The position numbers were made by a program, and so were the translations under genes. Of a DNA stretch of 64,000 nucleotides, positions 20,625 to 24,674 are shown piece after piece (position 1 is the stretch's first letter; each line of letters opens with the position of its first letter). This DNA is from the human T2T-CHM13v2.0 reference genome, Homo sapiens, in the NCBI RefSeq assembly GCF_009914755.1, contig NC_060928.1. The stretch is one strand, 5' to 3'. The notes below the pieces were generated by a model. It searched no databases, was not told where the DNA came from, and was given only the letters and a program-made list of their open reading frames with translations.

Positions 20625-21032
20625 TGTTGGGGTGATCAGACCCAACACCAGGTCATGGGGGTGACAAAGTCCGGCAGAGTCAAAGGATTGAGAAAAAGAC
20701 AGTTTGAGAGAGAAAGGTGGGACCAGGGGGCCATCACTAGTGTATGGAGGCTGCGAAGTCCCCGAGCTGTGGGAGTCCATACTATTTATTGGTAATCCAA
20801 CAAAGAAACAGGTGGTGAGAACGTGGAAGTCAAAAGGGCAGGTGCATGATCTACAGCTGTGATGGTTTAGCATGTATAAGGAACATGTTCTGCTACTTGA
20901 GATAATGGGAATACGAGCCTAGGAGGGCTAGCAGCAAGGAGCCAGCAAGTCTAGACACATTTCAGAGGACATTATGTCAGTCATGCAAGCCCTGCCTCAG
21001 TCTTTTTCCCAACACTCAGCCTTTTCCCAACA
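20625..21032 (-). mobile_element. 3' LTR (LTR14A-like, 408 bp)
   Basis: Close copy of 24265-24674; AATAAA on the minus strand (tttatt at about 20785). Confidence 0.93.
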
Positions 21033-21051
21033 TGCCCCATTTCTCTTTTTT
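21033..21051 (-). promoter_or_regulatory. Polypurine tract
   Basis: Minus strand aaaaaagagaaatggggca abuts the 3' LTR. Confidence 0.85.
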
Positions 21052-21499
21052 GAAAACGAGAAGGTATCGTTATTACTATCCTTATTACTAGCATAAAAGG
21101 TGGCCTCTTTTAATTGAGCAAGACGATTGCAGGCTGTGCAGCCCTTAATTGCCAGTTGGTGATCCAGCTTCATTTTTCTTAGCTCTTATTGAAACTGGAG
21201 TCGCTCTGGTTTGAATACTTCCCACATATCTCCCCTTTCCCTTTCACAAGAGGACCCTTAATCCTAGGGGCTGCAGAAGGATGAAGGTCCGTCTTCTGTA
21301 ACTTCTTCATGCTGAATAGGGGTGATGATATTCCTGCCCAACTATTAGGGTCTCTTGTATTCAGGGTAGAGGGGAGCTGAGTCACAAAGCATTGGTCTAT
21401 TAAACATCGTGATTCTGGTCGGTCCTCATTCCTTCTTTGCATTCAGATTCAACTGGCTCATGGCTTGTACTGGGGGGACCCGGTCCAAGGTTGGGATCT

Positions 21500-22020
21500 A
21501 TGGGTCCCTCCAGTCTCCCATTCCATGGTCATACACATCTTGAGGGCATCCACACAGTTCATTCATCTCCTGCAAAAACACAAGCATAACCTCACCCCCA
21601 CGTTAGTAAATCTACTGAAACAGAAGCAAAAACTTTCGTGGCTGTAGCTGGGAGACCACTGATAATGAGAAATAGGCCCCTTCTAACAGAAGGCACAGGG
21701 AAAGCAAATCAAGGCTTTTCAAAACTTCAATTAGCATTGTACAGGTGGGTCCACTAGATGCTATGGCTCATGATAGATCTTCAGATGTTTGGTGGGCACC
21801 CACACAGGCACCTAATTGTCACCTGGAGATACACAAGCAAATCCTCTTTGCCATATAATTATCTTTCCTTTTTCCCAGCTCTTTGTTTGTGACCATATCT
21901 TTTTCTAAGGCCTGCGGCATTAAGATGAGTTAAAGAATGGAATGCTTGTGCATCAGCAGAGACTGCAGACACCAGTGCATCCACCCTTTGATTAAGTTTA
22001 GTTAAAGGACCAAAAGGTCC
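21500..22020 (-). pseudogene. pol: HERV-K pol remnants: RNase H end/integrase N-terminus and two integrase C-terminal segments
   Basis: GPLTKLNQRVDALVS...[82 protein letters not shown]. Confidence 0.82.
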
Positions 22021-22159
22021 TGTTGGAGAGAAAAGAAAGAGCATTTTTATCCTTACCTCCATCCCCTCTATTCCTTTTATATTTGCCCTCTCAGATTTTG
22101 ATTGGATTTTGAGCCATAGCTAATTTCCATAATTCAGAATGTTCTTGTCTGTTCCTGTA

Positions 22160-22420
22160 AATCTCTGCTAGTCTTTGCTAGTCTCTAGTTTTGTACCTCT
22201 CTAGGGCACTGACCTTATATTGCTAGTCTTTGCTTTTGTACTTCTTTAGGGCACTGATCAGTACCTCTTTAGGGCACTGACCTTATATTGCTAGTCTTCA
22301 TCTATCTCTCTATTTATCTCCATCTCTCTACTTAACTCTGTCTCTACTTATCTCTACCTATTTATCTCTATCTCTATCTCTATATTTATCTCCCTTATCT
22401 CTACTTGCTTAGTTCTACTT
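22160..22420. repeat. Local duplications plus a degenerate TCTCTA/TTATC low-complexity tract at the TRPC6-pol junction
   Basis: tagggcactgaccttatattgctagtctt occurs twice, plus a partial third copy; tatctctac-like units at 22300-22420. Confidence 0.8.
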
Positions 22421-22900
22421 ACTTAGCTCTACATCTTTCCTGGAAACCTTTTTTATGACCCTGAGTAGAGCTCAGAAATCTACCCTTTAAGCTTCAGCAA
22501 GAGACAAAACAGGGACCCTGGACCTGGTACCAGATTGAAAGGAACAGGAAGTGCTCTCCCCTCCCCAAAGCAGGAAAACCAGAGTTTGGCCCTTGCAGAT
22601 TTCCACTCCACATCAGCGTCATCCTCAATTTCCTGGAATGAATTGTTGATCATGGCAATTAAGATATTTAGCAAAACAATGACCATTGTAACATTATAGA
22701 CTCCATAAAGAACATAACCAATGTTTTCAATGAATTTGTGGTTATCATTGTAACCACTGATTTCACTTCAGAAAGTCCACATATAGCCCAGAACAGTGTC
22801 TTAAAACTCTGTTGTGAAGGCTTCATTTTGTCTTGCACCAATGTAGGAGAAGAGGTTGAACATTCCCATCATAAAGACCACAAACAGCACAATGAACACA
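22420..22900 (-). pseudogene. TRPC6: Intronless TRPC6 mRNA fragment (S5, pore, S6, TRP box) captured in the provirus
   Basis: Minus-strand translation across frameshifts: [22 protein letters not shown] / [19 protein letters not shown] / [73 protein letters not shown]...LLLKLK / GHKKGFQE. Matches TRPC6; frameshifts and a stop make it a pseudogene. Confidence 0.93.
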
Positions 22901-23109
22901 TTCAGCCCATATCATGCCTGTGTGCTCGTTAAATCTGTTTTTCTCTAGCAGAGGCAGGTTAACCATGAAACTGAAGCTTCAAGATGACTTTACTTGCCCT
23001 ACGCAAAGCAGCCTGTGATTTATTTTTTCCGGGACTACTGCCAACCAGGCCTGTGTGTCAATCTGTAAGCATGCAACAGCAGGTCTACTGTACATGTAGG
23101 TCTTTTGTC

Positions 23110-23480
23110 AGACACTTGATTAACCCAACATACAGCCTCTCCTGTTGGATTAGTACTACCAAAGCCTCCTGTTCTTTTCACCAAGCTGCTTCCCAGCTTT
23201 ATGTCAACAACTGAGCAATTCTTTCTCCTAGGGAAGCAGACCACAGAGTTGAGGAACTAATAACTAATTGAATTTCTCTGGTATAATCAGAACCAATCAT
23301 TCCCGTATGCAGAGTGACACCTCTAGCTCTTTCAAGTAGTAGACCGACTTCCTGAGGACAAGAGTTCCCCAGCTCCTGTGGGGACCCTCTCTGGTGGCTC
23401 CCCAGGAAGCAGGGAAACGGGGAACTGTGCTGCAAAGGTTCACAGCAGCAATGCCCGCTGCAGCGGGAAACAATTGTTGC
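23110..23480 (-). pseudogene. Betaretroviral dUTPase remnant (N-terminal part of pro)
   Basis: AAAGIAAVNLCS; GVTLHTGMIGSDYTREIQLV (motif III); KRTGGFGST (motif V); frameshifted. Confidence 0.88.
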
Positions 23481-24116
23481 CGTTTGTAAGGGCCCTGGCT
23501 GTGCCAGATATGCCTCGGTTTATTGAGATGCTCTCTAAATAAACAAGCCTCAGATTCCACTGGGTCTTCATACTACCAATTGCTCCAGGTTTTAATGTTG
23601 CAACTACAGGAAAGGTAAGTTTTGCAGCTAATTCATTTACTTGCCCATTAAGGGGAGAGAGAGGAGGTGGCCATTCACTTAATTCAGCAGGTGGAGCCCA
23701 CGGGCTACTAAAAAATACTTTTTTCAGATTCCCTTTGTTTTCTTTAATTTCCTCCATTTCCTGTTCCTCACATTCAGAATCTGAAGTTTGTTTTTACACT
23801 CGTCCTCCTCTTCTTCATCTGAATCTGCCTCATCATCCGTTTGAAATGGCTCAAGAGCTGCTTCTGTTAGTGCCCACATTGACCAAACTGAGACTAGAAT
23901 TTTTGCTCCATCTTTATACACTTTTTAAAAATCTCTGCCAATTCTCTCCCATTCATCCAGCTCCATAGTCCCTTGTTCTGGGAACCATGAGCAAAACTGC
24001 CTTACTGCGCTAAAGAGTGAGTGATAAATTCTGAGCACTAACTTTCATTCCCCCTCTTTGTAATAATGCCTTAGGAAATTTAAACAAGCAGAATGTCTGC
24101 TTTCACTTTGTCCCTT
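23480..24116 (-). pseudogene. gag: HERV-K gag 5' part (matrix region); start codon mutated, capsid/nucleocapsid deleted
   Basis: AAG-GGA-CAA-AGT-GAA-AGC corresponds to (M)GQSES; GAKILVSVWSMWAL..AALEPFQ; EWPPPLSP. Confidence 0.8.
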
Positions 24117-24242
24117 TGTTACCCTGGTTCTTGTGAGTGCTCAGCTTTCCAGCCAAGCTTCTTTTCGACATCCTCAGGTGTCCTTTGATGAGGCATCCTT
24201 TGCTTTCACATGCTCTGGTATTCCTTCACCAGGATCTTTGTT

Positions 24243-24260
24243 GCCCCACATTGGGCGCCA
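24243..24260 (-). promoter_or_regulatory. Primer-binding site complementary to the tRNA-Lys(CTT) 3' end
   Basis: Minus strand TGGCGCCCAATGTGGGGC, one mismatch to TGGCGCCCAACGTGGGGC, 4 nt after the 5' LTR. Confidence 0.92.
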
Positions 24261-24264
24261 GAAA

Positions 24265-24674
24265 TGTTGGGGTGATCAGACCCAACACCAGGTCGTGGGG
24301 GTGACAAAGTCCGGGGGAGTCAAAGGATTGAGAAAAAAGACAGTTTGAGAGAGAAAGGTGGCACCAGGGGGCCATCGCTAGTGTGTGGAGGCTGCGAAAT
24401 CCCTGACTCTGGGAGCCCATGCTATTTATTGGTAATCCAACAAAGAAACAGGTGGTGACAATGTGGAGGTCAAAAGGGCAGGCACATGAGCTACAGCTGT
24501 GATGGTTTAGCATTTATAAGGAACATGTTCTGCTACTTGAGATAATGGGAATGCAATCAATCTGGAAGCCTAGGAGGGCTAGAAGCAAGGAGCCAGTTAG
24601 TCTAGACACATTCTGGAGGACATTATGCAAGCCCTGCCTCAGTTTCCCTCCCAACACTCAGCTTTTTCCCAACA
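24265..24674 (-). mobile_element. 5' LTR (LTR14A-like, 410 bp)
   Basis: Direct repeat of 20625-21032; followed by the PBS on the minus strand. Confidence 0.93.

What the first reader, a model, noticed from the sequence alone, without database searches (positions are those of the whole stretch)
20625..24674. Retrovirus that captured a cellular ion-channel mRNA: HERV-K14-type provirus carrying spliced TRPC6
Seen: a complete cis-element set (two LTRs, CCTACC TSD, Lys PBS, PPT) around gutted viral genes. About 480 bp of TRPC6-like sequence sits in sense orientation where protease and RT should be. The insert has no poly-A tail and no TSD of its own. It runs without introns across positions I recall as TRPC6 exon junctions (FTT|VEE, EIE|DDAD). 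Inference: the fragment was captured at the RNA level by template switching, as in acutely transforming retroviruses, and the element then integrated as a unit using helper proteins. From memory, TRPC6 portions in HERV-K14I proviruses have been reported (Flockerzi et al. 2005), so the class is probably known. Expression and function of this copy remain open.
Basis: partly seen in the sequence, partly recalled or inferred. Interest (0 to 1): 0.85.

Follow-up and report, generated by a model that had tools for sequence, protein, structure and literature searches.

The report
Dead provirus carrying spliced TRPC6 exons
This is a long-dead endogenous retrovirus that picked up part of the spliced message of the TRPC6 ion-channel gene and was copied around the genome by helper viruses; the class was reported in 2005 and the locus is already annotated as TRPC6P7, so it is a good fossil but not a new find.

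Summary
Window 20625-24674 is a 4,050-bp defective provirus on the minus strand. It has two LTRs (K2P 0.083), a 6-bp CCTACC target duplication, a PBS matching tRNA-Lys(CTT) at 17 of 18 positions, and a polypurine tract.

Window 22896-22427 is three TRPC6 exons joined exactly at the gene's splice sites (88-95% identity; a paralogue reaches 76%). There is no poly-A tail and no duplication around the insert.

The tools added four points:
- The TRPC6-derived part is larger and mosaic. It includes a deep-intronic TRPC6 segment that ends at a splice-donor-like site.
- A piece of an unrelated repeat follows the last exon.
- The genome holds 14 distinct TRPC6-bearing loci in two forms. This copy is one of 7 short-form copies that share the same deletions.
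- The short form looks like a recombinant between the primary long transducing element and a helper-type genome, with 2-7-nt microhomologies at four of its five junctions. It lacks reverse transcriptase, so it was copied in trans.

TRPC6 frames here are broken. The class is known (Flockerzi et al. 2005, not readable here; abstract recalled). Interest is modest.

The parts
24675..24680 (.). Target-site duplication, copy next to the 5' LTR (CCTACC on the + strand)
   Evidence: Read directly; identical 6-mer at 20619-20624.
24265..24674 (-). 5' LTR (410 bp, TG...CA, with an AATAAA signal)
   Evidence: 367 of 398 aligned positions equal the 3' LTR.
24243..24260 (-). Primer binding site for tRNA-Lys
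   Evidence: 17 of 18 positions complementary to the 3' end (plus CCA) of a tRNA-Lys(CTT) gene in the same genome.
23572..24242 (-). Leader and broken gag remnant (matrix domain)
   Evidence: Pfam Gag_p10 at 23928-24044, E 7.9e-10. 33 TRPC6-free loci match this stretch at 82-89%, most of them ending at or within a few bases of window 23572. Many stops.
23530..23568 (-). E1a: 39 nt derived from a deep intron of TRPC6
   Evidence: 95% identity to contig 11 around 101488777. Absent from TRPC6-free proviruses at this place.
23086..23527 (-). dUTPase / protease N-terminal remnant of the virus
   Evidence: 78-86% identity to two TRPC6-free proviruses, which carry about 430-535 bp more between gag and this piece. 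Weak match to a retroviral dUTPase structure, 2d4l, E 0.0075. No Pfam hit.
23000..23085 (-). Short viral pol piece
   Evidence: Matches 6 TRPC6-free proviruses at 84-93%. In one of them it lies 375 bp upstream of the piece equal to window 22149-22013.
22918..22999 (-). E1b: 82 nt of the same TRPC6 intron segment, ending at its donor-like site
   Evidence: 96% identity to contig 11:101488615-695. In the gene the segment is followed by GTGGGT.
22898..22917 (-). First 20 nt of the TRPC6 exon that encodes residues from 504
   Evidence: 22 of 22 in the BLAST alignment (that alignment starts 2 nt upstream, on bases E1b shares with the gene's acceptor), joined exactly to E1b. The residue number comes from the long-form alignment to 5yx9.
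22427..22896 (-). Three spliced TRPC6 exons (S5, pore, S6, TRP helix; about residues 640-790). Junctions at 22811|22810 and 22624|22623. This is the annotated TRPC6P7.
   Evidence: Frames are broken by stops and shifts.
22150..22426 (-). AG-rich microsatellite plus part of an unrelated low-copy interspersed repeat ('R')
   Evidence: Not TRPC6 and not in the TRPC6-free provirus at this place. 96% identity over 89 nt to an R copy on contig 12. The R family matches at about 30 loci without TRPC6.
21862..22149 (-). Viral pol remnant (RNase H end and integrase N-terminus)
   Evidence: TRPC6-free proviruses match from 22149 onwards. Integrase_Zn E 1.4e-4, 22.2 bits, just under the 22.6-bit cutoff.
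21052..21861 (-). Remaining 3' internal viral sequence, non-coding
   Evidence: 83-89% identity to many TRPC6-free proviruses. No Pfam hit in the 2 reading frames from this stretch that I scanned.
21033..21051 (-). Polypurine tract
   Evidence: Purine run directly 5' of the 3' LTR.
20625..21032 (-). 3' LTR (408 bp)
20619..20624 (.). Target-site duplication, copy next to the 3' LTR

Best explanation
Window 20625-24674 is a defective, minus-strand, class II (betaretrovirus-like, tRNA-Lys-primed) endogenous provirus. I take it to be of the HERV-K14I/HML-1 kind. It carries a retrovirally transduced piece of TRPC6 RNA.

Inferred history:
1. One capture event produced a primary 'long-form' element. 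Its order is LTR, leader with about the first 28 gag codons, about 181 nt of deep TRPC6 intron, four spliced TRPC6 exons (residues 504 to about 795), a piece of another repeat, a short pol piece, and LTR. I think the most likely route (about 55%) is a provirus sitting in that TRPC6 intron. Its 5' part became fused to intron sequence at a 5-nt microhomology. The fusion transcript then spliced from a donor-like site in the intron to the downstream exons. The alternative route (about 35%) is co-packaging of an aberrant TRPC6 transcript followed by template switches on both sides.
2. The long form then recombined with a helper-type HERV-K14 genome that has a different LTR type. It also suffered two internal deletions. 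This gave the 'short form'.
3. The short form lacks reverse transcriptase and most of integrase. It was packaged and integrated in trans at least 7 times. The window copy is one such integration, roughly 17-32 million years old.
4. It has since decayed and has no intact reading frame.

Shown here: anatomy, splice-exact junctions, shared deletions, microhomologies, separate target duplications. Inferred: the order of events and the RNA-level nature of the recombinations.
For: Provirus hallmarks. Gag_p10.

TRPC6 origin and exact splice junctions.

The intron-derived segment is matched only by the TRPC6 gene and the TRPC6-bearing elements. It ends at CAG|GTGGGT in the gene. It does not align to the TRPC6 protein: the alignment starts at residue 504 and leaves the first 20 residues unaligned. 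No coding exon lies within 1.5 kb upstream of it.

The insert ends about 7 nt before the end of an internal exon, with no poly-A.

Junction microhomologies:
- GAGGG between leader and intron, in 5 of 5 copies found by the anchor motif, of 6 loci scanned.
- GGCCCC between intron and protease piece, and TA between gag and intron.
- AGACAGG between R and pol.

7 of 7 short-form copies share the 8-bp loss and the loss of about 390 bp. The split intron segment shows in 6 of 7 as two pieces; at c7_30.7M the upstream piece lies in a separate locus. 6 of 6 long-form copies that hold that region keep the first junction whole, one of them short by a single base.

The window LTR is 75-77% identical to long-form LTRs but 87-88% identical to two TRPC6-free proviruses. 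The TRPC6 part is 90-91% identical to the long forms.

Different target duplications: CCTACC here, GCCTTC at c7_137M, GAAAG at c11_121M, GTTTT at a PAR2 copy.

The tree of the shared 470 bp is star-like, with end branches of 0.032-0.046.
Against: - The name HERV-K14I/HML-1 and the LTR subfamily could not be tested: no repeat library was on hand and the 2005 paper is not held.
- The order 'long form first' rests on parsimony. The long form keeps the intron segment whole, and the short form has viral sequence inside it.
- The short form needs at least three non-homologous crossovers plus two deletions. Such events are rare, and they could have happened in DNA between integrated copies rather than during reverse transcription.
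- Short-form monophyly has weak nucleotide support (62/79) and rests on the shared structural marks.
- No remnant of a donor provirus lies within 1.5 kb upstream of the intron segment in today's TRPC6 gene.
- dUTPase support is weak and protease has none.
- No other primate genome was available, so the age comes only from LTR divergence and assumed rates.
Confidence: 0.85

Rival explanations
1. An ordinary L1-made processed pseudogene of TRPC6 inserted into an existing provirus, which was later copied.
For: The exons are spliced. That is also what a processed pseudogene shows.
Against: There is no poly-A and no duplication around the insert. The 3' end lies about 7 nt before the end of an internal exon, not at the mRNA's 3' end. 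The 5' part is intron sequence joined to the viral leader through a 5-nt microhomology.
Confidence: 0.02
2. Short and long forms come from two separate captures of TRPC6.
For: Their 5' virus/TRPC6 junctions differ: leader to intron at one point, and gag to intron about 18-25 nt further in.
Against: Both forms share the same intron segment spliced to the same exon, and the same 3' end of the TRPC6 part in the last exon. They also share the same microsatellite and R block, and the same R/pol junction.
Confidence: 0.03
3. The mosaic short form arose by DNA-level events in the germ line (ectopic recombination, gene conversion or deletions between integrated proviruses), not by template switching during reverse transcription. 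It was then transcribed and copied.
For: Microhomology junctions are also typical of DNA end joining. Copy-specific DNA rearrangements do occur in this family, for example a 110-bp leader segment duplicated into the TRPC6 part at c5_146M.
Against: All the marks were already present in the common ancestor of 7 dispersed copies. Swapping the LTR type together with interleaved internal blocks is what co-packaged RNA recombination gives in one or a few cycles. Neither point is decisive.
Confidence: 0.12
4. The TRPC6 fragment was kept because it did something for the element or the host, as a v-onc-like truncated channel or an RNA element. On this view it was not a passive passenger.
For: The intron-derived segment supplies an ATG in frame with TRPC6 residue 504. 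The two PAR2 long-form copies still have a 304-codon open frame from it. A sibling locus, TRPC6P2, was reported in double-stranded RNA pull-downs (PMC11985509, passages read).
Against: In the window and the other short forms the frame is broken, and about 130 codons are deleted in all 7. 3 of the 5 long-form copies examined are broken within 21-123 codons. The two open PAR2 copies have LTRs at the same coordinates and near-identical open frames, so I count them as one locus copied. My rough estimate is a chance of a few percent per locus for such a frame to stay open, which is not compelling over about 5 loci.
Confidence: 0.08

Closest known systems
HERV-K14I (HML-1) proviruses with TRPC6 mRNA portions (Flockerzi et al., J Virol 2005;79:2941; PMC548434)
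   Same: From my recollection of the abstract, several HERV-K14I proviruses harbour TRPC6 mRNA portions as an example of cellular transcripts mobilised by HERVs. Here I saw only the title, in reference lists. RefSeq names this stretch TRPC6P7 (hub annotation). This locus fits that description in every respect I could test.
   Different: I could not read the paper. I therefore cannot say whether it describes the intron-derived segment, the extra repeat block, the two structural forms or the junction microhomologies. No open paper holds both TRPC6 and the HERV-K14 terms.
Acutely transforming retroviruses (transduced v-onc genes)
   Same: A spliced cellular sequence lies in sense orientation between viral cis elements. 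Viral genes are replaced, so the element is defective and helper-dependent. Junctions carry short microhomology. The 5' side is consistent with a provirus-to-cell fusion transcript (established model, my knowledge).
   Different: This element is fixed in the germ line and was amplified as an endogenous element. The cargo is an internal piece of an ion channel with no known growth advantage. There is no Gag fusion, because stops separate gag from the TRPC6 frame. The copy studied has no open frame.
HERV-K14I / HERV-W hybrid proviruses
   Same: They are recombinant HML-1 elements that still produced progeny copies at new sites (PMC3778440, passage read). This shows that the family recombined with other RNAs and was mobilised in trans.
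   Different: There the foreign part is another retrovirus; here it is a host gene transcript plus an unrelated repeat.
L1-mediated processed pseudogenes
   Same: Both are intron-less copies of a gene at a new locus.
   Different: This insert has no poly-A. It ends inside an internal exon, has no own target duplication, and sits inside LTRs with a 6-bp duplication.

Membership tests
LTR provirus, class II / betaretrovirus-like (HERV-K supergroup) | Two LTRs in the same orientation, each TG...CA | tested here: met
   410 and 408 bp, 367 of 398 aligned positions identical.
LTR provirus, class II / betaretrovirus-like (HERV-K supergroup) | Target-site duplication of 5-6 bp flanking the LTRs | tested here: met
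   CCTACC on both sides, 6 of 6.
LTR provirus, class II / betaretrovirus-like (HERV-K supergroup) | PBS complementary to the 3' end of tRNA-Lys | tested here: met
   17 of 18 against a tRNA-Lys(CTT) gene of the same genome, with CCA assumed.
LTR provirus, class II / betaretrovirus-like (HERV-K supergroup) | Polypurine tract next to the 3' LTR | tested here: met
   21051-21033.
LTR provirus, class II / betaretrovirus-like (HERV-K supergroup) | Betaretroviral gag matrix domain | tested here: met
   Pfam Gag_p10, E 7.9e-10, 39 bits against a cutoff of 23.9.
LTR provirus, class II / betaretrovirus-like (HERV-K supergroup) | dUTPase in the protease region | tested here: inconclusive
   PDB 2d4l dUTPase E 0.0075. 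No Pfam hit. Nothing found for the neighbouring frame.
LTR provirus, class II / betaretrovirus-like (HERV-K supergroup) | Reverse transcriptase, integrase, env | tested here: not met
   Of the 54 open frames of 35 aa or more, I scanned 12 minus-strand frames against Pfam and none matched RT or env. Integrase_Zn scored 22.2 bits, under the 22.6 cutoff. The element is defective, which does not exclude membership as a deleted copy.
HERV-K14I / HML-1 | LTR14-type LTRs and HERVK14 internal sequence by a repeat library | not testable with these tools
   No Repbase/Dfam was on hand. Indirect evidence: 33 TRPC6-free loci share the leader-gag part at 82-89%. The family name rests on the recalled 2005 abstract and on tables that equate HML-1 with HERV-K14I and LTR14A/B.
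Retrovirally transduced cellular sequence | Insert lacks introns and is joined at the gene's own splice sites | tested here: met
Retrovirally transduced cellular sequence | Insert in sense orientation, replacing viral coding sequence between intact cis elements | tested here: met
   The TRPC6 + R block takes the place of 375 bp of pol.
Retrovirally transduced cellular sequence | Virus/cell junctions at arbitrary points with short microhomology, without poly-A | tested here: met
Retrovirally transduced cellular sequence | Progeny copies at other loci with their own target duplications | tested here: met
   7 short-form loci and 7 loci that carry long-form marks (3 of them fragments). Duplications were read at 4 loci. 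For the other short-form loci I did not obtain both flanks.
Retrovirally transduced cellular sequence | Cargo expressed as a protein | tested here: not met
   All three frames of the window's TRPC6 part contain stops. Expression was not testable.
L1-mediated processed pseudogene | Poly-A tail at the 3' end, which equals the mRNA's 3' end | tested here: not met
   The insert ends about 7 nt before the end of an internal exon and is followed by an AG-rich microsatellite.
L1-mediated processed pseudogene | 7-20-bp duplication flanking the insert | tested here: not met
   None seen at the insert borders.

The most novel reading that the evidence does not exclude
The TRPC6-bearing elements keep a nearly complete record of a germ-line transduction. 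Capture started from a fusion transcript inside a TRPC6 intron. The retained intron piece supplied a start codon in frame with residue 504. The primary element therefore encoded a roughly 315-residue truncated TRPC6 pore module, in effect a 'v-TRPC6'. That module may have been expressed and favoured the element's spread. One pseudoautosomal locus still keeps a 304-codon open frame.
Probability: 0.1. Interest if true: 0.6.

Novelty: already known. Interest (0 to 1): 0.3.

Why it matters
Germ-line fossils of retroviral gene capture are rare. This family shows the steps unusually clearly: the intron-derived start, splice-exact exons, microhomology junctions, later recombination with a helper, and spread in trans.

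In practice it explains the scattered TRPC6P pseudogenes. These can attract TRPC6 reads or probes covering the pore region. A sibling locus has turned up in a double-stranded RNA pull-down.

For this scan, the finding is real, but the class is already in print and the locus is already annotated.

Tried and rejected
- Reading the 2005 paper by DOI, PMC id and PubMed id failed; it is not held. Searches for open papers that describe TRPC6 in HERV-K14 found none. 'TRPC6P' gave 7 papers. I read passages of two of them, and only one was relevant.
- I first read 22119-21862 as env TM. Pfam points to the integrase N-terminus instead, so I dropped the env reading.
- I first took 22999-22917 for protease. 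It is TRPC6 intron sequence.
- I considered an alternative 3' splice site to explain the 8 missing bp. I rejected this because 6 of 6 long forms hold the junction without that loss.
- I looked for islands of unusual conservation among the short-form copies. The profile shows 70-95% identity per 100 bp, lowest in the repeat block and the LTRs, and no clear island.
- I looked for the canonical upstream TRPC6 exon, or any LTR, within 1.5 kb of the intron segment. Neither is there.
- The repeat R could not be named.
- Both flanks could not be obtained for 3 short-form loci, c5_24.8M, c5_23.8M and c9_113M. c7_30.7M was not examined for target duplications.

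
Full report
**Observation**

The stretch 20625-24674 is bounded by two direct repeats, 20625-21032 and 24265-24674. In a global alignment they agree at 367 of 398 aligned positions, with 23 transitions, 8 transversions and 4 gap events, giving K2P 0.083. Each starts TG and ends CA. The hexamer CCTACC flanks the element on both sides, at 20619-20624 and 24675-24680.

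Reading the minus strand shows that the element lies on that strand. Four bases after the LTR at 24674-24265 comes an 18-nt primer binding site (24260-24243). A purine run (21051-21033) abuts the other LTR.

I searched the same genome with a pattern made from the complement of the PBS plus a T-loop motif. It hit 11 places. I fetched two, and ARAGORN called a tRNA-Lys(CTT) gene ending on the match in one of them and no gene in the other. The PBS is therefore complementary to tRNA-Lys at 17 of 18 positions, with CCA assumed.

**The TRPC6 part**

The three minus-strand frames of 22930-22420 give pieces of a TRP channel, broken by stops and frame shifts.
- A 95-residue piece scores 158.5 bits (E 4.4e-46) on human TRPC6 structures, residues 694-781 of 5yx9, with 78 of 88 aligned residues identical. 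TRPC3 scores 127 bits.
- A 36-residue piece matches residues 640-670.

A DNA search of the window's own genome places 22896-22811, 22813-22623 and 22625-22427 on three separate stretches of contig 11. These are 101483224-312 (89%), 101481851-2042 (95%) and 101480907-1103 (88%). A paralogous locus on contig 5 reaches only 76%; I call it TRPC7 from its recalled map position only.

In the gene these stretches are bounded by AG and GT. In the window they abut directly at 22811|22810 and 22624|22623.

After the last exon comes an AG-rich microsatellite, not an A-run. TRPC6 similarity stops about 7 nt before that exon's end. There is no duplication around the insert.

**More TRPC6 than annotated**

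The same search found other copies of the insert, and some are longer. In a long copy (L007), a 611-nt stretch maps to three further places in the gene:
- 101488619-799 (96%),
- 101486016-251 (94%),
- 101483296-489 (89%).

The last two are coding exons. Translation aligns to TRPC6 from residue 504 onward.

The first place, which I call E1, is not coding.
- The 20 residues it contributes do not align to TRPC6.
- It lies 2.4 kb upstream of the next exon.
- There is no coding exon in the 1.5 kb upstream of it.
- In the gene it ends at CAG|GTGGGT, a donor-like site.

In all copies E1 is joined exactly to the acceptor of the next exon. E1 has no other match in the genome apart from these elements.

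The window holds E1 in two pieces, 23568-23530 and 22999-22918. These are followed by the first 20 nt of the next exon (22917-22898). About 390 nt are then missing, and the three exons described above follow. Altogether about 92% of 581 aligned TRPC6-derived positions equal the gene. This is my sum of the figures.

**Viral remnants**

- Pfam finds a betaretroviral matrix domain at 24044-23928 (Gag_p10, E 7.9e-10). It finds a sub-threshold integrase zinc-finger start at 22119-21862.
- The frame at 23519-23202 gives a weak match to a retroviral dUTPase structure (E 0.0075).
- Thirty-three loci without TRPC6 match the leader-gag part at 82-89%, and most of them end at or within a few bases of window 23572.
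- Two of those loci also match 23527-23086. They carry roughly 430-535 bp more between gag and this piece than the window does.
- The 86 nt at 23085-23000 match six TRPC6-free proviruses. In one of them this piece lies 375 bp upstream of the piece equal to window 22149-22013.

So the block from E1b through TRPC6 to 22150 replaces 375 bp of pol. No reverse transcriptase or env is left.

**A second passenger**

Window 22426-22150 is neither TRPC6 nor part of the TRPC6-free provirus. It is a variable microsatellite followed by units of another interspersed repeat, which I call R. R matches about 30 loci that lack TRPC6 at 67-89% (40 of 90 candidates were scored). None was seen in the TRPC6 gene. 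One R copy on contig 12 is 96% identical to the window over 89 nt. I could not name R.

**The family**

The genome holds 16 places, or 14 loci when the X and Y pseudoautosomal copies are counted once.
- Seven are 'short forms' like the window: contigs 4, 11 (121.26 Mb), 9, 7 (137.57 Mb), 5 (24.85 and 23.80 Mb), and 7 (30.68 Mb, rearranged).
- Seven carry long-form marks. Four are fuller copies: two in PAR2, contig 5 (146.26 Mb) and contig 7 (151.79 Mb). Three are fragments on contigs 12, 18 and 19, and the one on contig 18 holds only the end of the last exon and cannot be assigned to a form.

All 7 short forms share the loss of about 390 nt and an 8-bp loss just after the first exon junction. 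The split E1 shows as two pieces in 6 of the 7. At the rearranged contig-7 locus the upstream piece lies in a separate fetched locus. All 6 long forms that hold that region keep the first junction without the 8-bp loss, though one lacks a single base there.

Short forms are 87-89% identical to the window over the whole element.

Target duplications differ between loci: CCTACC here, GCCTTC at c7_137M, GAAAG at c11_121M and GTTTT at a PAR2 copy. For three short-form loci I did not get both flanks. The rearranged contig-7 locus was not examined.

**Junctions**

- In the 5 copies found by the anchor motif, of 6 loci scanned, the viral leader (equivalent to window 24049, about gag codon 28) meets the intron through a shared GAGGG.
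- In the short forms, gag meets E1a at a shared TA, and E1a meets the protease piece at a shared GGCCCC.
- R meets pol at a shared AGACAGG.
- The last exon meets the microsatellite at AGAGAT.
- The pol-to-E1b junction shows at most 1-2 shared bases.

**History**

The long form keeps E1 whole, while the short form has viral sequence inside E1 and lacks parts of it. So the short form cannot be the ancestor. Both forms share the 3' end of the TRPC6 part, the R block and the R/pol junction, so there was one capture.

The window's LTR is only 75-77% identical to long-form LTRs but 87-88% identical to two TRPC6-free proviruses. Its TRPC6 part is 90-91% identical to the long forms. This fits recombination of a long-form RNA with a helper-type genome of another LTR type, plus two deletions. 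The product was then spread in trans, because the shared architecture has no reverse transcriptase.

The tree of the shared 470 nt is star-like, with end branches of 0.032-0.046 and weak support for a short-form clade (62/79). This suggests a short burst of copying.

The LTR divergence gives about 17-32 million years for this copy, under assumed rates of 2.5 to 1.3 x 10^-9 per site per year. The rates are from my own knowledge.

For the capture itself I favour a provirus in the TRPC6 intron whose 5' part was fused to intron sequence. A splice from the donor-like site at the end of E1 to the exons then followed. My reasons are that the 5' border of E1 is an arbitrary microhomology point and its 3' border is a donor site. 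Co-packaging of an aberrant TRPC6 transcript remains possible. DNA-level recombination between integrated copies cannot be excluded for the later steps.

**What it does now**

There is no open frame of note in the window. No RefSeq functional element overlaps it, according to the hub annotation. I regard it as an inert relic.

A sibling locus, TRPC6P2, 'with ERVK', was reported among RNAs enriched in a double-stranded RNA pull-down (PMC11985509, passages read).

**Comparison and novelty**

The title of Flockerzi et al. 2005 appears in reference lists. From memory, its abstract says that several HERV-K14I proviruses harbour TRPC6 mRNA portions. I could not read the paper. No open paper combines TRPC6 with the HERV-K14 terms. 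RefSeq already names 22433-22896 TRPC6P7.

The finding is therefore real and correctly interpreted, but already known. The intron-derived start, the second passenger, the two forms and the junction details may or may not be in the 2005 paper.

Noticed in passing
L007 and L009 (contigs 24 and 23, last 330 kb; the PAR2 placement is my reading of the coordinates): The two pseudoautosomal long-form copies keep a 304-codon open frame. It runs from an ATG inside the intron-derived segment through TRPC6 residues 504 to about 790. The other three long-form copies examined are broken after 21-123 codons. My rough estimate is that chance survival is plausible.
   Followed up: partly
window 22150-22426; L084 (contig 12:69.18 Mb); L085 (contig 1:160.75 Mb): An unnamed low-copy interspersed repeat (about 30 loci without TRPC6) begins with an (AAGTAAGTAGAGAT)n-like microsatellite. 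A piece of it travels with the TRPC6 insert. Two genomic copies lie 25 kb and 43 kb from TRPC6-bearing elements, at contig 7:151.76 Mb and contig 11:121.31 Mb.
   Followed up: partly
L011 (contig 5:146.26 Mb): This long-form copy has a 110-bp piece of its own leader duplicated into the TRPC6 part (97% identical) and a small inverted piece of the exon.
   Followed up: no
window 23636-23647 against the start of E1b: A 12-nt identity (TGGGCAAGTAAA) links the window's gag and the TRPC6 intron segment. TRPC6-free proviruses differ at this spot. It may be chance.
   Followed up: no
contig 11:101488615-101488700 (TRPC6 gene, L038): In the gene itself the intron segment carries an in-frame stop, then an ATG in frame with the next coding exon, and then a good donor site. 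It could be a natural alternative first or cassette exon. Annotation could not be checked.
   Followed up: partly
window 19964-20008 and 20346-20390: A 45-nt direct repeat (84% identical) lies 382 bp apart just outside the provirus.
   Followed up: no
window about 24750-25000: A T-run followed by Alu-like sequence lies just beyond the target duplication, read by eye. It looks like an ordinary neighbouring insertion.
   Followed up: no
L047 (contig 19:20.85 Mb); contig 11:24.35 Mb: Two further deleted relatives. One keeps only 60 nt of the intron segment plus R and 3' viral parts. The other keeps R and 3' viral parts and showed no TRPC6 match.
   Followed up: no
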